NCBI GenBank assembly: GCA_018606785.1
Contig: JAGYWH010000099.1
Location: 1 to 30,811 of the forward strand
Direction of reading: 5' to 3'
DNA: 30,811 bases
Source: Candidatus Magnetobacterium cryptolimnobacter
GTDB lineage: Bacteria; Nitrospirota; Thermodesulfovibrionia; Thermodesulfovibrionales; Magnetobacteriaceae
The notes beneath the pieces were generated by a model, which had not been told where the DNA came from, did not search any database, and was given only the letters and a program-made list of their open reading frames with translations. A program made the translations under genes and the position numbers. This document shows, one piece after another, positions 3,317-18,204 of the stretch (position 1 is the first letter of the stretch; each line of letters opens with the position of its first letter).

Positions 3317-3703
3317 TCATGGGATGTTTTTTTTAACGGTTACAATGTAGGGCGTAGATGTTGAGTCTGGAAATTTAATATATGGATATTGGCCAATCCT
3401 GTCGGCTTTTTCGAAATACTTATGTAACATATCTGAATTTTCTTTATTAAAAGTTGCAACTGCTATCTCAAACTCTTCACCAATGTTACGTGGAATACCA
3501 ACAGTTGCAATTGCTTGCCAGTTATTTCCTTTTACTGTCGCTATTGGTTGTGGCCACCATCGCCCTTTTAGGGTTTTTACATGCAAAAAAATCCATATAT
3601 CATCGTTATTATTAGCAGTATAATTGACAGTTCCTATCACTTTCAGCGCACACCCAACGGAGTTACCTTCTTCAGGTGATGTAATTTTAACGTATCCTCT
3701 CAA
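3317..3703 (-). CDS. Hypothetical protein (128 aa) in an AT-rich islet
   Basis: Long ORF in a roughly 35-40% GC segment (3.3-4.9 kb) contrasting with about 55% GC neighbours. No motif recognised. Confidence 0.5.
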   Translation of the reverse strand: MRGYVKITSPEEGNSVGCALKVIGTVNYTANNNDDIWIFLHVKTLKGRWWPQPIATVKGNNWQAIATVGIPRNIGEEFEIAVATFNKENSDMLHKYFEKADRIGQYPYIKFPDSTSTPYIVTVKKNIP

Positions 3704-3740
3704 AAAAGCAGGGTAATTTTTATTTCACGTTTAAAAGGCA

Positions 3741-3816
3741 TGGATTCCTGCTTTCGCAGGAATGACAATTACAGCCGTTTTCTAAGTGTGTCATTTCTTG
3801 CTTGACCAGGAATCCA
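3741..3816. repeat. MITE-like repeat, family 2 (copy M1): TIR TGGATTCC...GGAATCCA with nested hairpins
   Basis: tggattcctgctttcgcaggaatgaca...gtcatttcttgcttgaccaggaatcca. Closely similar to 21398-21476, with the same TIRs, ATTCCTGC/GCAGGAAT hairpin and internal GTCATT. Confidence 0.7.
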
Positions 3817-3834
3817 GTATACGTAAAAGTATAG

Positions 3835-4488
3835 TTACCATGAAATATAAAGAAGATACATTTTAACTTTATTGTAAGATTCTTCAAATAGCTCACTTGC
3901 TTTCTTTGGATTTGTTTCTATCTTGTCTTCAGCATCTTTCAACTTAGGTTGGTTGGGGAATCCTTCTCCGTGTACCTGAATAAGAGCAAGCTTATAGTAA
4001 AACGCTGAACTTGAATAGTGCTTATCGTTATAAGATTTCTCTGCCGCTTTAAGTAAACTTTGATTTAATTCAGCTGATCGTGGGTCTTGGAATCCTTCGC
4101 TCATACCATTCATATAACATGGTTGAATATACTTATTACGTATAAATTGCTTGTATGCATCATCATTTTTTATATATTTTTCCATAGCTCTTTCTGCAAT
4201 AGTTATAATATCCAAATCGAAACTGCCTGTTTTGCAATTTATTTCTTTATCCTTTAGTAAACTCAAGATACTGTTCACGGATACTATTGAAGATAAATCT
4301 GAATTTAACGTGTCTTGTTTTTTTTGATATTCATAAATTTCTATGGCTATTATAATGCTCAAGACGGTAAGCAAAACACCAAGTATGCCTATCATTATCT
4401 CGCTAAATGGGGCAAGATACAAAGCCTTTTTTCTTAACCGATTCCAAAAACCTATCTCTTCAGTTTCCATTGCCATAATGTCCTCCAA
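3835..4488 (-). CDS. Hypothetical single-pass membrane protein (217 aa) in the AT-rich islet
   Basis: One predicted TM helix (IMIGILGVLLTVLSIIIAIEIY) followed by a roughly 160-aa soluble domain. No recognised motifs. Low GC. Confidence 0.5.
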   Translation of the reverse strand: MEDIMAMETEEIGFWNRLRKKALYLAPFSEIMIGILGVLLTVLSIIIAIEIYEYQKKQDTLNSDLSSIVSVNSILSLLKDKEINCKTGSFDLDIITIAERAMEKYIKNDDAYKQFIRNKYIQPCYMNGMSEGFQDPRSAELNQSLLKAAEKSYNDKHYSSSAFYYKLALIQVHGEGFPNQPKLKDAEDKIETNPKKASELFEESYNKVKMYLLYISW

Positions 4489-12252: not shown

Positions 12253-12585
12253 TTATAAGTGTGGTTTTGAAAAAGATTCTTTAATCTTAGGTAACTGTAA
12301 CCTGATAACCTTCCAAACTATCTCATAATCAACACCAAAATAGAAATGGATAAGTTTATCCCTCATCCTTGCCATATCGCTCCAGGGGACATTCTCATGT
12401 TGATGTCTCATGTCTGACGGTATGTTTTTAGATGCCTCTCCAATTATTTCAAGTTGCCTTATTACTGCACTTGATGTTTTTATGTCAGATGCAAACTCAT
12501 CATAACTCATTTCGGCAATAAAGTCTTCAATATTTTGTATGCAATTAAGTATGTCTTTTATATAAAGGCTGGAGTCTCTATTCAT
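12253..12585 (-). CDS. hepT: HepT-like (DUF86) toxin of a type VII HepT/MNT toxin-antitoxin pair
   Basis: 110 aa with Rx4HxY motif (RDKLIHFY). ATG overlaps the stop of upstream mnt (ATGA). Confidence 0.85.
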   Translation of the reverse strand: MNRDSSLYIKDILNCIQNIEDFIAEMSYDEFASDIKTSSAVIRQLEIIGEASKNIPSDMRHQHENVPWSDMARMRDKLIHFYFGVDYEIVWKVIRLQLPKIKESFSKPHL

Positions 12586-12875
12586 ATTATCACCGTTTCA
12601 TTAAGTATACGTTCTCTTAACTCAGGCCGTACAGCGCTTTTCCTGACAAGATCAACCTTTTTCCTTAGAATTTTCTGAAGGTATCGTTCAATCTCTATAA
12701 ACTTTAGCAGATCAGGCACTTCGTCAAACTCAACAAGGATATCAATGTCACTTCTCCTTGTTTGTTCTGCCCTTGCATAAGAGCCAAATATTCCTATCTC
12801 TCTCACCTTGTATTTATTGACAAGTTCTTCCTTATGTAGTCTGATAGTGCTTTTTATCTCTTCTAAGTTTTTCAT
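12582..12875 (-). CDS. mnt: MNT nucleotidyltransferase antitoxin (minimal nucleotidyltransferase)
   Basis: GIFGSYARAEQTRRSDIDILVEF (GSxxRGx...DxDxLV). The ORF-track start at 12896 is a GTG inside duplicated Uma2-5' sequence. The most likely start is the ATG at 12873-12875 (MKNLEEIK...). Confidence 0.82.
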   Translation of the reverse strand: MKNLEEIKSTIRLHKEELVNKYKVREIGIFGSYARAEQTRRSDIDILVEFDEVPDLLKFIEIERYLQKILRKKVDLVRKSAVRPELRERILNETVII

Positions 12876-12958: not shown

Positions 12959-13522
12959 TCATCGCAAATCTCTGAATATATCATCCACGTCTACCTCTAA
13001 CCCCTTTAGCTCTCTTGAACTGACCACATTGCCACCCCGACAATGACAGACAAGCTCACCATCCTCGCTTAATGCCAACACCTCAACATATCTGCTGAAG
13101 GGATCGACTATCCAGTACTCCATGACCTTGTGACGCTGGTATAGTTGTCGCTTTTGATGCACGTCCCTGTACTGTGACGATGCCGAAAGAATCTCTACAA
13201 TCACATCAGGAGGACCAAAGACACCGCTGTATTGTACTCTGTGCAGGTTCAACCGCGATATAAACAATATATCAGGCTCAACAATGTCCTCATCACTGAG
13301 CACAACGTCTACGGGGGCATATAACACCATCCCCAGGGCATTGTCCTCAACAAAACGATTCAACCGGATAAACAATCTCTTTGATATAACCTGATGGTTG
13401 ATACTTGGAGCTGGAGACATCGACAGTATTGCTCCTATTAACTCATACCTGTGGTCATCGTCCAGGAGCAGGTAGTCGTCATAAGACAGTTTTTCCTTAC
13501 ACTCTGTAAGCATAGCACTCAT
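12959..13522 (-). CDS. Uma2-family endonuclease (DUF820, PD-(D/E)XK-like), embedded in the trp operon
   Basis: 187 aa with the Uma2 pattern ([18 protein letters not shown]...PDILFIS...EILSASS...K...Y...V.EYWIVDP). Its ATG overlaps the trpG stop (ATGA). Confidence 0.8.
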
Positions 13523-15593: not shown

Positions 15594-15739
15594 TGTGACA
15601 AACACTCTCTCTTTTCTCAAGAATATGTTTCATATAAATTATACTGTGTATATCATAACAGTTTGGTCAAAGAAAGTTCCAATAGTACTCAGAGTTATGC
15701 TCTCTTGCTTATGACCGTCATGCTCCATGGATAGCTCAA

Positions 15740-16453
15740 TCATCCATTTTGAAACAACGCAGGAGTCAGTGTCTCCAGAAATGAAATCGTATAAGTCCAT
15801 GCCGCCTTTGCCGCATAATGTTGCCACTTATCATCTTTTTTGGAGTCTGCCTTGTCACTGACGCCTTTAATCATAATAAAACCCGGCTTTGAAAAATTTT
15901 GACTGATAGCCTTGCAAACACCGGCAGATTCCATTTCGATGGCCACAAGCTTGTTCCAGACGCCGAGGAACTCGGTTACCTTTTTCTCATCAGCCACGAC
16001 CTTGTTACCGGATAATACGACTCCAAATAACACTTTAGGGACAAAGTTGTCAGATATTAAAGTCAACTTCCACTCGCTGCTTCTGTATCCCCTCAGACGG
16101 TTCAAAAGAAATGCATCTACGTCATATCCCTTCCAGTGTGCAGATGTACCATCAGTGGTTATCTTCCCCAGCTCGTAGTCCACCACTTGATCGGAAACTA
16201 CAACATCCCCGATGTTGACATCTTTTCCTGCCCCTCCGGCTATTCCGATGAGCAGTATCTTTTTGGGTTGCCACTGGTATAGTATATCCGCTGTTACCAA
16301 TGCTGCATCCACATGCCCCATTCCAATGGCACAGGTAGCTATTATGTTGAGACCGTTTTTGGTTCGGTATTGGTAATATGTGCGAATTGAATTAAAGATG
16401 CTTTCTACGGGTTGCCATCCCTCCGTTTTTTCCAGGATAGCGTTAAGCTCCAA
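15740..16453 (-). CDS. PNP/UDP-phosphorylase-family nucleosidase (MTA/SAH-nucleosidase/futalosine-hydrolase-like), 5' end uncertain
   Basis: IIATCAIGMG...LLIGIAGGAG...AIEMESAG motifs. The conserved N-terminal strand (RVDVAIITALPLELNAILEK) is in frame upstream of the first canonical start (a TTG at 16451-16453) with no ATG/GTG/TTG, so there may be a frameshift or non-canonical start. About 40% GC. Confidence 0.7.
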   Translation of the reverse strand: MELNAILEKTEGWQPVESIFNSIRTYYQYRTKNGLNIIATCAIGMGHVDAALVTADILYQWQPKKILLIGIAGGAGKDVNIGDVVVSDQVVDYELGKITTDGTSAHWKGYDVDAFLLNRLRGYRSSEWKLTLISDNFVPKVLFGVVLSGNKVVADEKKVTEFLGVWNKLVAIEMESAGVCKAISQNFSKPGFIMIKGVSDKADSKKDDKWQHYAAKAAWTYTISFLETLTPALFQNG

Positions 16454-16467
16454 CGGAAGTGCCGTGA

Positions 16468-16848
16468 TTATCGCAACATCGACTCTTTGAGGCGCAGGTT
16501 GCTCCTGTTTGATATTTTTTTCTTTTCGGCTTGGCTTTTTCTATCCTGCCCCTCATAAACTGTCGCTGTTGCATGTTTCCCAGCAGCCAAGGCTTCAGCT
16601 TGTATACTTCCTCCCTGTACAAAGATTCCACTGTTTACTATGACAGTGGATTTATCTTTATTGTTTGAAGCATTAACATTACCGGAACTATCAGTATCTG
16701 TCACGTCCGGAGACAGAATCCTTTCTATGTAGCTAATGCGCTCTTTATACACCATGATCTTGTCGTGGTCCGGATTAATCTTTATCTCTTCGCTACGTAA
16801 TAAATCCCTGTAAGAATCAAGTCGATTTATATAATCCCTTTTTTCCAT
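16468..16848 (-). CDS. Small hypothetical protein (126 aa), paralog of the 16975-17199 product; shared motif IVN(N/S)GIFVQGG(N/S)IQA.A.A.G
   Basis: AGGGAGG Shine-Dalgarno 10 nt upstream of the ATG. The conserved 25-aa C-terminal block is shared with the neighbouring 74-aa ORF. AT-rich. Confidence 0.55.
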   Translation of the reverse strand: MEKRDYINRLDSYRDLLRSEEIKINPDHDKIMVYKERISYIERILSPDVTDTDSSGNVNASNNKDKSTVIVNSGIFVQGGSIQAEALAAGKHATATVYEGQDRKSQAEKKKISNRSNLRLKESMLR

Positions 16849-16974
16849 TTCTCGTAAGCCTCCCTATATTTCAGTAACACCATACAAAAACGTAACATAC
16901 TTAATTTTTATTGTTGTCAAGCGACTTGACTGAGTATACCATACGATGTTAATGGATGTTTTATAGTTTTCTTT

Positions 16975-17199
16975 TTATTTCTCCTTTTTATTAGTTTCTG
17001 CTTTAGCTTTAGCTTTAGCTCCAACTGCAATGGCATTAGCCTGTATATTTCCTCCTTGCACGAATATTCCGTTGTTTACTATAGCTGTGGCTTTGTCTTT
17101 AAAATCCGAAGTATCAATATTATGTTTATCCAAGAAATCTGCTATAGAATCAATAATTTCTCTTTCCAATACTTTTACATACATTTCCTTATCCAGCAT
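16975..17199 (-). CDS. Small hypothetical protein (74 aa), paralog of the 16468-16848 product
   Basis: ...KDKATAIVNNGIFVQGGNIQANAIAVGAKAKAKAE, matching ...KDKSTVIVNSGIFVQGGSIQAEALAAGKHATA in its neighbour. Confidence 0.5.
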   Translation of the reverse strand: MLDKEMYVKVLEREIIDSIADFLDKHNIDTSDFKDKATAIVNNGIFVQGGNIQANAIAVGAKAKAKAETNKKEK

Positions 17200-17328
17200 T
17201 TGAAAATACCTGTAAAACAGGTCACGACTATAATCTTGCCTGATACTCTTTGTAGCCCCATAGTTGAAAAGAGGGTTTTCCTTTATCTCTCTTTTTTGTT
17301 TATCTTCAATAAATTTTAAATGTATCCT

Positions 17329-17961
17329 CTAAGAAAAGCATGGTAAGATGGGGTCAAGGGGGCTGGCCCCCTTGCAGGGGAGGTCTGAGGAGGGGGCGGA
17401 GCCGCCCTCCTTCTTTCTTTTACCATGCAATATAAAGAGGATACGAAAATACTCTAAAATTATCAGCAGCATAGAAACAAATATAGAAAAGAATGCGAGA
17501 GCATGCTTGTTGTCATAGTTGTCAGCGAATTTACTCATCTTTACTATTAATGATATATCTATGCCTGGCTCAGGAGGATCGGCAAGATGCTTTTCTCTGT
17601 CACATTTTAGTATCTCATTTCTTAAATTGCTATCCGATAACACACTAGCGGCAATATATCTTGTTGCTTCACTTTTCCTGAAATCCATCATTGCTCCTCC
17701 ACTTACACTTATTGAACGAAAATTATCATACCTATCTCTACTGTTAAGACTCCAATTAACCAGCTCATAACCTTTATCATCCGCAAATCTTCCTGTAATA
17801 ATTAACACTAAATCATAAAAAACCCATAAACCAAAACCACCTCCAGTAAAAAGCATCAGCATCCCCGTCCATGCTTTCCTCACATAAAAGCGATGTACAC
17901 CAGCCCATCCAAAAACAAAACACAGCACCAAAGCTACCATCCTGTTTTTCTCAGAAACCAT
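17329..17961 (-). CDS. TM2-domain (PF05154) membrane protein with a second C-terminal TM helix; the last ~28 codons are encoded by repeat copy R4
   Basis: The N-terminus ALVLCFVFGWAGVHRFYVRKAWTGMLMLFTGGGFGLWVFYDLVLIITG matches the TM2 consensus. The ORF runs through the GC-rich repeat (KEGGSAPSSDLPCKGASPLDPIL) with no earlier stop. Confidence 0.7.
   Translation of the reverse strand: MVSEKNRMVALVLCFVFGWAGVHRFYVRKAWTGMLMLFTGGGFGLWVFYDLVLIITGRFADDKGYELVNWSLNSRDRYDNFRSISVSGGAMMDFRKSEATRYIAASVLSDSNLRNEILKCDREKHLADPPEPGIDISLIVKMSKFADNYDNKHALAFFSIFVSMLLIILEYFRILFILHGKRKKEGGSAPSSDLPCKGASPLDPILPCFS
17349..17420 (+). repeat. GC-rich bipartite palindromic repeat (copy R4, short canonical form)
   Basis: GGGGTCAAGGGGGCTGGCCCCCTTGCAGGGGAGGTCTGAGGAGGGGGCGGAGCCGCCCTCCTTCTTTCTTTT. 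Confidence 0.9.
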
Positions 17962-18152
17962 AATGAATAACCATTCTGCTTTGATAAAAGCGCATTTTAT
18001 CTGATAACATCACACCTCTCAACTTTGTATAACTTGTACACAAATAAGCTTACGTCTCAAATTTTTGTCCTCGCGCCCCAGACAATAGTTATGCTATCAC
18101 AGATATCAGAGTTTGTCAAGTCTTTTTTATGCGTGTAAATCCAAGCTCCATC

Positions 18153-18204
18153 TGAGGGGAGGGCAGAACCGCTCCCCTTCTTTCTTTTCTTATTCTTCTT
18201 TTAC
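18153..18204 (+). repeat. Partial copy (B-module plus tail) of the GC-rich repeat (R5)
   Basis: GGGGAGGGCAGAACCGCTCCCCTTCTTTCTTTTCTT overlapping the 3' end of the CPBP protease gene. Confidence 0.5.

What the first reader, a model, noticed from the sequence alone, without database searches (positions are those of the whole stretch)
15640..18190. AT-rich accessory islet between trpE and the CPBP protease: TM2-domain membrane protein, two paralogous small proteins and a PNP-family nucleosidase. Candidate undescribed (defence-like?) module
A roughly 2.5-kb segment of about 40% GC (versus about 55% in flanking core genes) carries four co-directional minus-strand genes:
- 17329-17961: a 210-aa protein with an N-terminal TM2 domain (GWAGVHRFYVRKAWTG...TGGGFGLWVFYDLVLII) plus a second C-terminal helix.
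- 16975-17199 and 16468-16848: two small paralogs (74 and 126 aa) sharing a strictly conserved C-terminal block IVN(N/S)GIFVQGG(N/S)IQA(N/E)A(I/L)A.G, with no family I can recognise.
- 15740-16453: a Pfs/PNP-UDP-type nucleosidase.

Nucleosidase/phosphorylase domains are established effector modules in several antiphage systems (nucleotide-depleting effectors), and small duplicated proteins plus a membrane protein in a low-GC islet fit a defence-island signature. None of the four matches a system I can name. A GC-rich repeat (R4) is embedded at the 3' end of the TM2 gene and a partial copy bounds the islet at 18153.
Basis: partly seen in the sequence, partly recalled or inferred. Interest (0 to 1): 0.75.

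Follow-up and report, generated by a model that had tools for sequence, protein, structure and literature searches.

The report
Decayed membrane-receptor plus nucleosidase defence pair
The four small "genes" are the wreckage of two genes, a membrane receptor and a cell-killing nucleosidase, that carry the same ~25-residue sticky tag; this points to a widespread, apparently undescribed bacterial defence-type system that probably signals by amyloid-like templating.

Summary
The ORFs, the low GC, the shared block and the repeat are all real, but the gene model is wrong. The window comes from Ca. Magnetobacterium sp. LHC-1.

**Gene structure**
- The 126-aa ORF and the PNP ORF are one 369-aa gene, split here by an A8-to-A7 indel. 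Three sister assemblies carry it intact.
- The "TM2 gene" and the 74-aa ORF are fragments of one 636-aa membrane-protein gene. A third fragment of 283 aa is deleted in this window.
- That gene was broken by two MITE insertions, and in this window also by a 1,231-bp deletion.

**The receptor family**
- The membrane protein belongs to a family with no Pfam, NCBIfam or PADLOC model. It has 774 clusters at 50% identity.
- Its C-terminus ends in the motif (T/S)ILNxG(I/V)IV(S/T)GGxIxAxx(L/I)AVGxxA.
- In at least 28 of 33 genomic loci, an adjacent gene starts with the same motif. That gene continues into a DUF5955-like helical protein, a TIR domain or a CHAT domain. In Magnetobacterium alone it continues into PNP.

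**The motif**
- AlphaFold2 leaves it disordered in both proteins.
- It is rich in N, G, I and V and contains no proline, like known amyloid-signalling motifs.

**Best reading:** a decayed two-gene receptor/effector conflict system that couples through templated β-assembly, with a new receptor class and reversed motif polarity. The mechanism is inferred, not shown.

The parts
17445..17961 (-). 5' fragment of the receptor gene. It encodes residues 1-172: the TM2 domain, the cytosolic 'SEATRYIAAS...' region and the start of the first TM hairpin. The annotated 210-aa ORF (17329-17961) runs on into the MITE.
   Evidence: Pfam TM2, E = 8.8e-18. Identical to L002 and L003 up to the deletion junction. 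Matches the family HMM.
17444..17445 (.). Junction of a 1,231-bp deletion relative to the sister assemblies (L003 8525-9755). The deletion removes the rest of the TM region, MITE#1 and the central domain (the '283-aa gene'). Its right edge is exactly the left terminal inverted repeat of MITE#2.
   Evidence: Alignment. blastn and coordinates.
17322..17444 (-). MITE#2, 123 bp. It has 9-bp terminal inverted repeats GTATCCTCT/AGAGGATAC and carries the GC-rich 'R4' core. It is inserted in the receptor ORF. One copy of its 8-bp target-site duplication, ATTTAAAA, remains at 17314-17321.
   Evidence: In L003, excising the MITE plus one duplication copy restores the reading frame.
16975..17321 (-). 3' fragment of the receptor gene, a stop-to-stop ORF at 16978-17328. 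It encodes the conserved tail '...NPLFNYGATKSIR...YRYFQMLDKEMYVKVLEREIIDSIADFLDKHNIDTSDFKDKATAIVNNGIFVQGGNIQANAIAVG...'. The annotated 74-aa ORF (16975-17199) is only its last part.
   Evidence: hmmsearch with A5: 146.7 bits, and the match extends upstream of the ATG. P0056 and 774 family clusters carry this module at the C-terminus of 450-780-aa proteins.
17011..17085 (-). Receptor-side coupling motif: AIVNNGIFVQGGNIQANAIAVGAKA.
   Evidence: The equivalent tail in family member P0057 is disordered in AlphaFold2, pLDDT about 32.
15740..16848 (-). Effector gene, 369 aa when intact. Layout: N-terminal helical hairpin (residues 1-45), disordered segment carrying the motif, then the PNP nucleosidase domain. 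In this window it is split into the 126-aa and 237-aa ORFs.
   Evidence: An intact 369-aa gene is present in L002, L003 and L004. AlphaFold2 model: pLDDT 81, residues 49-102 below 50, PNP domain above 90.
16515..16521 (-). A7 homopolymer. The three sister assemblies have A8. The missing A causes the frameshift that splits the effector gene.
   Evidence: Alignment A7. Frame analysis of the sequence.
16570..16644 (-). Effector-side coupling motif: VIVNSGIFVQGGSIQAEALAAGKHA.
   Evidence: It is 15/22 identical to the receptor motif and is that receptor's best match among the 15 partner motifs compared.
15740..16486 (-). PNP_UDP_1 nucleosidase domain, starting at 'RVDVAIITALP'. The catalytic-type motifs 'AIEMESAG' and 'VSDKAD' are present.
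   Evidence: Pfam. PDB alignment to MTAN. Foldseek TM-score about 0.8 to MTANs. PADLOC PDC-M60C E = 4e-34 and CBASS PN effector E = 3.5e-28.
17994..18119 (-). Two sigma-70-like promoter matches upstream of the receptor start codon. These are consensus matches only.

Best explanation
The islet is a decayed copy of a two-gene receptor/effector conflict system, probably an abortive-infection system.

**Gene 1, the receptor.** It encodes a multi-pass membrane protein, 636 aa when reconstructed. In order it has:
- an N-terminal TM2 domain;
- TM hairpins;
- a cytosolic alpha/beta domain of unknown function;
- two helices;
- a disordered ~25-residue C-terminal motif.

**Gene 2, the effector.** It encodes a helical hairpin, then the same motif in a disordered segment, then a PNP-family nucleosidase.

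**Proposed mechanism (inferred).**
1. A trigger such as phage infection or membrane perturbation makes the receptor cluster.
2. The C-terminal motifs come together and adopt a cooperative cross-beta, beta-arch fold.
3. That fold templates the identical motif on the effector.
4. The PNP domains are brought together and activated. By analogy with Cap17 and DtcC, they would cleave ATP/dATP or another purine nucleotide and kill or arrest the cell.

**State in this genome.** The system is non-functional or nearly so. The receptor is split by MITEs and has lost 1.2 kb. The effector carries a homopolymer frameshift, which may instead be a sequencing error.

**Shown:** the gene structure, the family, the motif pairing and the effector repertoire.

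**Inferred:** the trigger, amyloid-type templating, the substrate and the immune role.

**My sub-confidences:**
- gene model: 0.95
- receptor/effector pair coupled by the shared motif: 0.8
- immune or conflict role: 0.65
- amyloid-like templating: 0.5
- ATP as substrate: 0.4
For: **Gene model**
- The window shows A7 where three sister assemblies show A8, and those assemblies carry an intact 369-aa gene.
- Excising two MITEs from L003 gives one 636-aa ORF with no stop. Each MITE has 9-bp terminal inverted repeats and an 8-bp target-site duplication.
- The reconstructed ORF matches the family HMM end to end: 527 bits, E = 2e-162.
- P0056 carries the central domain and the 74-aa-like tail in one polypeptide.

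**Receptor family**
- The profile search found 774 representative clusters. Nearly all carry the module at the C-terminus of 450-780-aa proteins.
- No Pfam, NCBIfam, PADLOC or PHROGs family matches.

**Motif pairing**
- In at least 28 of 33 genome loci the neighbouring gene begins with the motif. The same holds in 45 of 80 metagenome loci, many of them short contigs.
- No third conserved gene was found.
- The effectors are death or immune domains: TIR, CHAT, DUF5955 helical proteins (12 of 14) and PNP here.

**Motif properties**
- It is terminal and about 25 aa long, with N4, G6, G12 and G22 invariant and G11 in 32 of 33 motifs.
- N is enriched 3.0-fold, G 2.9-fold, I 1.7-fold and V 1.6-fold. 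K and L are depleted and P is absent. This matches the published bias of bacterial amyloid-signalling (BASS) motifs.
- AlphaFold2 leaves it disordered in both receptor and effector while the flanking domains are confident.
- Cognate motif pairs are slightly more alike than non-cognate pairs: 11.5 versus 10.5 of 22, permutation p = 0.002.

**The PNP domain**
- It is effector-type and its catalytic motifs are conserved.

**Precedent**
- The E. coli Bab/Agp system is an amyloid-signalling antiphage system with a non-NLR receptor (bioRxiv 10.1101/2024.11.07.622273).
- Immune PNP domains act as ATP nucleosidases (bioRxiv 10.1101/2023.01.24.525353).
Against: - There is no experimental evidence here for fibril formation, templating, nucleosidase substrate or phage defence.
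- The motif matches no known amyloid-motif Pfam family. It lacks the G-phi-Q-phi-G core shared by RHIM, PP and BASS3.
- Polarity is reversed relative to all described pairs: here the receptor carries the motif at its C-terminus and the effector at its N-terminus.
- The co-variation signal between cognate motifs is weak and may be confounded by phylogeny.
- AlphaFold2 disorder is compatible with any induced-fit interaction, not only amyloid.
- In every available Magnetobacterium assembly that covers the region (L002 and L003), the receptor is already MITE-disrupted. The locus studied is therefore not a working example.
- Defence-island context was not evaluated. The flanking genes are housekeeping (trpE/G, hisF).
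Confidence: 0.6

Rival explanations
1. The gene model is the same, but coupling is static. The shared motif forms an ordinary hetero-oligomeric beta-sheet or beta-zipper that tethers the effector to the receptor all the time. Regulation then works by sequestration and release, as in a toxin-antitoxin or anchoring arrangement, with no self-propagating amyloid fold.
For: The motif is highly conserved across all loci. Any receptor/partner pair is about 48% identical. That fits a generic docking interface at least as well as a lineage-specific templating code. AlphaFold2 disorder is also typical of segments that fold on binding. Two metagenomic effectors (L096, and this PNP) carry extra helical N-terminal modules that could add binding surface.
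Against: The composition, the invariant N and G positions, the ~25-aa length, the terminal position and the TIR, CHAT and PNP effector repertoire all parallel validated amyloid-signalling motifs. TIR and PNP enzymes are generally activated by higher-order assembly; that is my own knowledge of TIR and PNP enzymology and was not tested here.
Confidence: 0.22
2. The two-gene architecture holds, but the role is not antiviral. It could be programmed cell death, kin discrimination or an envelope-stress response in multicellular or filamentous bacteria.
For: The family is concentrated in filamentous cyanobacteria, actinomycetes, Acidobacteriota and Ktedonobacterales. Conflict and apoptosis-like systems have been described in these same lineages (PMC7159879, PMC8195603). 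No relative was found in 2.9 million viral contigs, and flanking genes are often housekeeping.
Against: TIR, CHAT and PNP effectors coupled to sensors are established antiphage effectors. The low-GC islet sits about 3 kb from a HepT/MNT toxin-antitoxin pair and a Uma2 endonuclease.
Confidence: 0.12
3. One reading: four independent genes forming a novel module, namely a TM2 membrane protein, two small paralogous proteins and a nucleosidase.
For: All four ORFs exist and are annotated separately in GenBank records.
Against: MITE excision restores one 636-aa ORF. Homologues are single polypeptides. An intact 369-aa effector is present in three sister assemblies. The PNP ORF lacks strand beta-1 and any start codon in its own frame.
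Confidence: 0.03
4. The nucleosidase is the housekeeping MtnN or MqnB enzyme, and the rest is unrelated membrane-protein debris.
For: The fold and catalytic motifs are those of MTA/SAH nucleosidases. The best NCBIfam hit is the MtnN model, E = 3e-25.
Against: The score of 89 bits falls well short of the 169-bit cut-off, and all other housekeeping models also fall below cut-off. The nearest relatives, at 45-52% identity, are EAD7-fused conflict-system PNPs. The enzyme is fused to the receptor's own motif. The locus is low in GC.
Confidence: 0.03

Closest known systems
Bab/Agp (BASS11) amyloid-signalling abortive-infection system of E. coli (Ibarlosa et al., bioRxiv 10.1101/2024.11.07.622273)
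   Same: Two adjacent genes share a motif of about 20-25 residues at protein termini. The receptor is not an NLR. The motif family is also found with TIR, CHAT and EAD7-type partners. The proposed logic is that the receptor nucleates a fold that templates the effector and leads to cell death.
   Different: [quoted passage not shown] Here the receptor is a multi-pass membrane protein with the motif at its C-terminus, and the effectors carry it at their N-terminus.
NLR/Bell BASS1-10 gene pairs of filamentous bacteria, and fungal NWD2/HET-S, sigma and PP pairs (Dyrka et al. 2020, bioRxiv 10.1101/2020.01.06.895854)
   Same: The motif is about 25 aa, rich in N, G, V and I, and poor in K, P and L. 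It is shared by adjacent genes. Alternative effectors include TIR and CHAT in bacteria and PNP_UDP in fungi. The taxonomic bias towards multicellular bacteria is the same.
   Different: There is no NB-ARC or NACHT receptor. Polarity is reversed. No Pfam RHIM, HET-s, sigma or PP family matches. The dominant effector is DUF5955-like, not Bell.
EAD-coupled NTP-dependent conflict systems; EAD7-PNP proteins (Kaur, Burroughs, Iyer, Aravind: PMC7159879, PMC8195603)
   Same: The PNP domain is 45-52% identical to EAD7-fused PNPs. The 'EAD principle' also applies: the same adaptor appears on sensor and effector.
   Different: The Magnetobacterium protein has no EAD7. Its adaptor is the short disordered beta-motif rather than a helical Death-like domain. 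The partner is a membrane protein, not a STAND or other NTPase.
Cap17 (CBASS) and DtcC (Detocs) PNP effectors, which are ATP nucleosidases (Rousset et al., bioRxiv 10.1101/2023.01.24.525353)
   Same: It is a PNP_UDP_1 effector domain with conserved catalytic motifs. It hits the PADLOC CBASS 'PN-superfamily' effector model at E = 3.5e-28.
   Different: Cap17 is activated by a cyclic nucleotide through SAVED, and DtcC by phosphotransfer. Here activation would come through a shared terminal motif. The substrate is untested.

Membership tests
Amyloid-signalling motif (ASM/BASS) gene pairs | A short motif of about 20-25 aa is shared between the products of adjacent genes and lies at protein termini. 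| tested here: met
   The receptor C-terminus and the neighbour's N-terminus share the motif in at least 28 of 33 genome loci and 45 of 80 metagenome loci. In the window the motifs lie at 17011-17085 and 16570-16644.
Amyloid-signalling motif (ASM/BASS) gene pairs | Composition bias: enriched in N, G, Q, V and I; depleted in K, P and L; conserved G and N positions. | tested here: met
   Enrichment: N 3.0-fold, G 2.9-fold, I 1.7-fold, V 1.6-fold, Q 1.4-fold. Depletion: K 0.36-fold, L 0.34-fold, P absent. N4, G6, G12 and G22 are invariant and G11 is present in 32 of 33 motifs.
Amyloid-signalling motif (ASM/BASS) gene pairs | The receptor is an NLR (NB-ARC or NACHT plus repeats) with the motif at its N-terminus, and the effector carries it at its C-terminus. 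| tested here: not met
   The receptor is a multi-TM protein with no NTPase or repeat Pfam hit. Polarity is reversed. A non-NLR receptor does have a precedent in Agp.
Amyloid-signalling motif (ASM/BASS) gene pairs | Sequence membership of a described motif family (RHIM, PP, BASS3, HET-s, sigma). | tested here: not met
   No Pfam hit for the 74-aa or 126-aa ORFs at E up to 1, or for seven full-length receptors at E up to 0.01. The G-phi-Q-phi-G core is absent.
Amyloid-signalling motif (ASM/BASS) gene pairs | Identity with BASS11 of Bab/Agp. | tested here: inconclusive
   Only residue numbers are given in the text, and no sequence or supplement is held. The reported key residues do not fit the present consensus by inspection.
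Amyloid-signalling motif (ASM/BASS) gene pairs | The motif forms fibrils, behaves as a prion-forming domain and cross-seeds between partners. | not testable with these tools
   This needs peptides, ThT, electron microscopy, solid-state NMR or in vivo foci assays. The only indirect evidence is AlphaFold2 monomer disorder.
Immune PNP effectors (Cap17/DtcC-like ATP nucleosidases) | PNP_UDP_1 fold with intact catalytic motifs. | tested here: met
   Pfam E = 1e-22 on the intact protein. 'EME' and 'SDxAD' align with MTAN. AlphaFold2 pLDDT is above 90 and Foldseek TM-score is about 0.8.
Immune PNP effectors (Cap17/DtcC-like ATP nucleosidases) | Closer to defence-associated than to housekeeping PNP models, and fused to immune adaptors. 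| tested here: met
   PADLOC PDC-M60C E = 4e-34 and CBASS PN effector E = 3.5e-28. All NCBIfam housekeeping models are below cut-off. The nearest homologues carry EAD7, EAD5, HNH or REC domains. No phylogeny was made.
Immune PNP effectors (Cap17/DtcC-like ATP nucleosidases) | Cleaves ATP/dATP to adenine plus ribose-5'-triphosphate. | not testable with these tools
   A biochemical assay is required.
Housekeeping MtnN / futalosine hydrolase (MqnB) | Scores above the NCBIfam equivalog cut-off. | tested here: not met
   NF004079: 89 bits against a cut-off of 169. TIGR01704: 59.1 against 73.8. TIGR03664: 56.6 against 124.7.
EAD7-PNP conflict-system proteins (Kaur et al. 2020) | C-terminal EAD7 (PF19960) adaptor. 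| tested here: not met
   The intact 369-aa protein has no EAD7 hit, and it ends about 10 residues after the PNP domain. Its homologues do have EAD7.
TM2 domain proteins (PF05154) | Pfam TM2 domain above the gathering score. | tested here: met
   64.7 bits against a cut-off of 27.9, at residues 4-52. It is a lineage-specific N-terminal addition: none of the ten other family members scanned has it.
Known or candidate antiphage systems in PADLOC-DB v2.0.0 | The receptor or the small ORFs match a PADLOC model. | tested here: not met
   There are no hits for the TM2, 74-aa or 126-aa ORFs. Seven full-length receptors give only noise, with E of 0.014 or higher.

The most novel reading that the evidence does not exclude
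The Magnetobacterium relic reveals a previously undescribed, widespread class of membrane-embedded immune receptors. The class has about 770 clusters at 50% identity and occurs in cyanobacteria, Acidobacteriota, actinomycetes, Chloroflexota, Proteobacteria and Nitrospirota. These receptors would signal through a new amyloid-signalling motif family of reversed polarity to interchangeable death effectors: DUF5955 helical proteins, TIR, CHAT and PNP. It would be the first case of amyloid-type signalling that starts from a membrane receptor in prokaryotes.
Probability: 0.4. Interest if true: 0.85.

Novelty: new variant of a known kind. Interest (0 to 1): 0.7.

Why it matters
If the inference holds, amyloid or prion-like signal transduction in bacterial immunity extends beyond cytosolic NLR and TPR sensors to a large family of membrane receptors. 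It would also connect to four effector chemistries: membrane-active helical proteins, NADase-type TIR, CHAT proteases and PNP nucleosidases.

That would give a compact, portable two-gene system for testing how a ~25-residue tag transmits an activation signal. It would also assign a function to DUF5955 and to a sizeable unannotated membrane-protein family.

For genome annotation, the locus is a clear example of how MITE insertions and homopolymer indels create spurious "small paralogous proteins".

Tried and rejected
- **Housekeeping MtnN/MqnB reading.** Rejected on NCBIfam cut-offs and on the nearest homologues.
- **Known defence systems.** PADLOC, PHROGs and NCBIfam gave nothing for the receptor or the small ORFs.
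- **RHIM, PP or BASS3 membership.** There is no Pfam hit, and the G-phi-Q-phi-G core is absent.
- **Word-based homologue search with the 74-aa ORF.** It found only itself and one relative, which wrongly suggested an orphan. The exhaustive profile search corrected this.
- **L001 downstream gene.** The 557-aa permease-like protein next to the 70-aa homologue (no Pfam hit) is not a partner. The motif-bearing CHAT-like ORF lies further downstream.
- **The search for related loci with the full-length alignment A4.** It failed for lack of a conserved stretch. The C-terminal alignment A5 worked.
- **Viral contigs.** No relatives were found.
- **A third conserved gene.** Neighbour clustering found none; the other clusters are shadow ORFs or scattered housekeeping genes.
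- **afdb50 fold search.** Not available.
- **Programmed -1 frameshift at the A-run.** Considered and rejected, because three near-identical assemblies simply have one more A.
- **Recombination between the two MITEs as the cause of the deletion.** Rejected, because the left breakpoint lies 438 bp upstream of MITE#1. An element-end-mediated adjacent deletion is possible but untested.

Full report
**Source and observation**

The PNP ORF is identical to a protein of Candidatus Magnetobacterium sp. LHC-1, a member of the Nitrospirota. All four minus-strand ORFs exist at the stated coordinates. GC falls to 0.32-0.47 across about 15600-18200, against 0.50-0.61 in the trpE/trpG and hisF flanks.

- The 210-aa ORF has a Pfam TM2 domain, E = 8.8e-18. 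The 237-aa ORF is PNP_UDP_1, E = 2.2e-20.
- The 74-aa and 126-aa ORFs have no Pfam, NCBIfam or PADLOC family.
- The two small ORFs are clearly paralogous: BLASTP E = 3e-16, 46% identity over 65 residues.
- The motif occurs nowhere else in the six frames of the window.

**The effector is one gene, not two**

Reading the sequence, the PNP frame is open upstream of the annotated TTG as far as 16541. It contains no start codon there. It encodes 'RVDVAIITALP', the first beta-strand with which all homologous PNP domains begin.

A one-base shift in the A-run at 16515-16521 joins this frame to the 126-aa ORF. Three near-identical assemblies carry exactly that 369-aa gene:
- L002 (GCA_002753685.1)
- L003 (GCA_015233985.1)
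- L004 (a Logan assembly)

Those assemblies have A8 where the window has A7. This is the only small indel in 19 kb of 99.7-99.9% identity. It may be a real mutation or a homopolymer sequencing error.

AlphaFold2 on the reconstructed protein gives three regions:

| Residues | Prediction | pLDDT |
|---|---|---|
| 1-45 | helical hairpin | 66-83 |
| 49-102, includes the motif | disordered | 30-39 |
| from about 123 | PNP domain | mostly above 90 |

The PNP domain superposes on MTA/SAH nucleosidases with a TM-score of about 0.8. The 'EME' and 'SDxAD' catalytic motifs are conserved.

**The nucleosidase is of the effector type**

- It falls below the curated cut-offs of all housekeeping MtnN, futalosine-hydrolase and DeoD models, for example 89 bits against 169.
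- Its best scores are against the PADLOC models PDC-M60C (E = 4e-34) and the CBASS 'PN-superfamily' effector (E = 3.5e-28).
- Its closest relatives, at 45-52% identity, are PNP proteins with a C-terminal EAD7 adaptor and variable N-terminal domains. These belong to the NTP-dependent conflict systems of Kaur et al. (PMC7159879, PMC8195603).
- The Magnetobacterium protein has no EAD7.
- Immune PNP domains such as Cap17 and DtcC have been shown to be ATP nucleosidases (bioRxiv 10.1101/2023.01.24.525353). The substrate here is untested.

**The 'TM2 gene' and the 74-aa ORF are fragments of one receptor gene**

In L002 and L003 the TM2 ORF is 332 aa, and a further 283-aa ORF lies between it and the 74-aa ORF. 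The window lacks 1,231 bp here.

Homologues of the 283-aa ORF are fused proteins:
- P0056 carries that domain followed by a 74-aa-like tail.
- P0055 carries an N-terminal region resembling the TM2 ORF's middle part, followed by the same domain.

The breaks between the three L003 ORFs coincide with two miniature inverted-repeat elements:

| Element | Size | Terminal inverted repeats | Target-site duplication |
|---|---|---|---|
| MITE#1 | 168 bp | GTATCCTCT / AGAGGATAC | CACTAATC |
| MITE#2 | 123 bp | GTATCCTCT / AGAGGATAC | ATTTAAAA |

Removing each element with one duplication copy yields a single 636-aa ORF with no internal stop. That ORF aligns end to end with the family profile: 527 bits, E = 2e-162.

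In the window, MITE#2 lies at 17322-17444. The 1,231-bp deletion ends exactly at its left terminal repeat.

**The receptor family**

A profile of the 74-aa ORF, its one close relative and the effector's N-terminus was searched against 1.84 billion representatives.
- It found 774 clusters at E of 1e-3 or better, and 403 at 1e-10 or better.
- Nearly all carry the module at the extreme C-terminus of 450-780-aa proteins.

These proteins share:
- a 'TRYLxAS...APExGxD' region;
- a TM hairpin;
- a conserved domain of about 200 aa ('NLxVYSGFxPFVGAG..GGWSF..D ... RHYKWI..DW..ELVVSYFLR ... FLLTPL');
- a weaker hydrophobic segment;
- the tail 'NPxFxYGA..S(L/I)R...YFQKLDKEMYxK..ER..LD.I..FLD.HNIDTSDLKERQTxILNxG(I/V)IV(S/Q)GGx(I/V)xAxx(L/M)AVG..A'.

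No Pfam, NCBIfam, PADLOC or PHROGs model covers them. The literature library returned no paper on this family, and none at all on DUF5955.

AlphaFold2 on member P0057 is confident overall: pLDDT 84.7, pTM 0.80. The last 28 residues, which hold the motif, have pLDDT of about 32 and follow two confident helices.

Hydropathy shows an even number of strong TM segments before the central domain in all four proteins examined. I infer from this that the central domain and the tail are cytoplasmic. This was not tested.

**A conserved two-gene architecture**

I ran one scan of representative genomes and one scan of metagenome contigs.
- The genome scan gave 33 loci, in filamentous cyanobacteria, Acidobacteriota, actinomycetes, Ktedonobacterales, Cytophagales, Alpha- and Gammaproteobacteria, and Thermodesulfobacteriota.
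- In at least 28 of the 33, the gene next to the receptor begins, within its first ~10 residues, with the same motif: 'M..N(E/Q)G(I/V)(I/V)(V/I)SGG(T/S)(I/F)xAxx(I/V)AVGxxA'. This gene is usually immediately downstream.
- The metagenome scan gave 80 further loci. In 45 of these, many on short contigs, the pattern repeats.
- No third gene is conserved.
- No relative was found in 2.9 million viral contigs.

After the motif, the partners continue into:
- most often, a helical protein of about 100 aa with a hydrophobic C-terminal helix, matching DUF5955 in 12 of 14 cases;
- TIR domains in 5 loci (Pfam TIR_2 E = 3.8e-20 in L030);
- CHAT domains in 3 loci;
- three minor helical families.

PNP occurs only in Magnetobacterium.

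In Magnetobacterium the similarity to the receptor tail extends beyond the motif, covering HMM positions 48-106 and the BLASTP match. The effector's adaptor therefore looks like a duplicate of its own receptor's C-terminus, fused to a PNP domain of the EAD7-PNP lineage. L096 shows a comparable helical N-terminal extension.

**Nature of the motif**

The 22-25-residue core has N4, G6, G12 and G22 invariant, and G11 in 32 of 33 motifs. Its composition is biased:

| Residue | Ratio to background |
|---|---|
| N | 3.0 |
| G | 2.9 |
| I | 1.7 |
| V | 1.6 |
| Q | 1.4 |
| K | 0.36 |
| L | 0.34 |
| P | absent |

This is the bias reported for bacterial and fungal amyloid-signalling motifs. The motif shares four further properties with the NLR/Bell BASS pairs (bioRxiv 10.1101/2020.01.06.895854) and with the experimentally validated Bab/Agp system of E. 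coli (bioRxiv 10.1101/2024.11.07.622273):
- it is terminal;
- it is disordered in monomer models;
- it is shared by adjacent genes;
- it is attached to the same effector vocabulary.

In Bab/Agp, a non-NLR receptor templates a pore-forming effector through the BASS11 motif.

There are also real differences:
- The receptor is a membrane protein.
- Polarity is reversed: the receptor carries the motif at its C-terminus and the effector at its N-terminus.
- No Pfam RHIM, HET-s, sigma or PP family matches.
- The G-phi-Q-phi-G core is absent.
- The residues reported as critical in BASS11 do not fit the consensus by inspection.

Cognate receptor/effector motifs are only slightly more alike than non-cognate ones: 11.5 versus 10.5 identities of 22, permutation p = 0.002, or 0.009 without Magnetobacterium. 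Co-evolution support is therefore weak.

**Mechanism proposed**

The following points are shown:
- There are two genes.
- The receptor family exists and is large.
- The motif is paired at the termini of neighbouring gene products.
- The effectors are of the death or immune type.

The following steps are inferred:
- A trigger clusters the receptor.
- The C-terminal motifs nucleate a cooperative beta-arch or cross-beta fold.
- The fold recruits and converts the effector's N-terminal motif.
- The PNP domains are concentrated and activated, depleting a purine nucleotide (ATP or dATP by analogy) and aborting infection.

The main rival keeps the architecture but replaces templating with a static beta-sheet tether. 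A non-antiviral programmed-death or stress role cannot be excluded.

**State of the locus**

In the window the system is degraded. The receptor is split by MITE#2 and has lost its TM region and central domain. The effector is frameshifted. Both sister assemblies that cover the region (L002 and L003) also have the receptor disrupted by both MITEs. The species therefore carries a relic, although its effector gene is intact in three of four assemblies.

**Novelty**

The kind of system is known: a terminal motif shared by an adjacent receptor and effector, with interchangeable death effectors. The following appear undescribed, judged against the libraries and literature available here:
- the receptor class;
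- the motif family;
- the reversed polarity;
- the DUF5955 link;
- the PNP fusion.

I therefore rate it a new variant of a known kind. It is of high interest for the family it reveals, tempered by the lack of any functional evidence and by the decayed state of this particular copy.

Noticed in passing
window 17322-17444 and 3692-3859; L003 8963-9130 and 9756-9878: A MITE family with 9-bp terminal inverted repeats GTATCCTCT/AGAGGATAC and 8-bp target-site duplications. It comes in two size classes, 168 bp and 123 bp. The 123-bp form carries the GC-rich core. Both insertions in the receptor gene are clean and can be excised in frame.
   Followed up: yes
It occurs at seven or more sites in 31 kb, mostly intergenic, and forms a terminator-like hairpin.
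   Followed up: partly
window 17444/17445: The 1,231-bp deletion relative to the sister assemblies ends exactly at the MITE#2 terminal repeat, and its other end lies inside the receptor ORF. This looks like an element-end-mediated adjacent deletion, or a population variant. An assembly artefact is not excluded.
   Followed up: partly
window 12253-12585 and 12581-12874 (minus strand); 12959-13522: A HepT-like toxin and MNT (NTP_transf_2) antitoxin pair, plus a Uma2-family putative endonuclease, lie in a second low-GC patch (0.34-0.43) about 3 kb from the islet, just beyond trpG.
   Followed up: no
reconstructed receptor (L003 8008-10225 minus the MITEs), residues about 135-290: An internal duplication of the 'D(I/M)xL(I/L)VKMxKxA(D/E)xYxNK + two TM helices' module. 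Other family members have one copy.
   Followed up: partly
P0174 (429 aa, representative library): One ORF contains the receptor tail motif and, about 40 residues later, a second motif that looks like the partner's N-terminus ('TYTRNEGVVVSGGNFTATNVATG...'). This is either a receptor-effector read-through fusion or a merged gene call.
   Followed up: no
L041 6585-8444 (Streptomyces sp. AC2023): A divergent receptor whose C-terminus replaces the usual motif with a different tail rich in G, N and Q ('VNNQTYNFTGPVTGQNIFGDHGINAIGQGGG...' followed by poly-Gly). This may be a motif swap. No matching neighbour was recognised.
   Followed up: partly
L016, L024, L033: Receptor genes with a normal motif but no motif-bearing neighbour within 1.5 kb. 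They are orphan receptors, or their partners are encoded elsewhere.
   Followed up: partly
L096 1986-2648: This effector has a helical N-terminal extension of about 80 aa before the motif ('...ELKRLIDRHWQRLQLLKERQALYGASVDPQVVIEIEEIEAEV...'). It resembles the helical hairpin at the N-terminus of the Magnetobacterium PNP effector.
   Followed up: no
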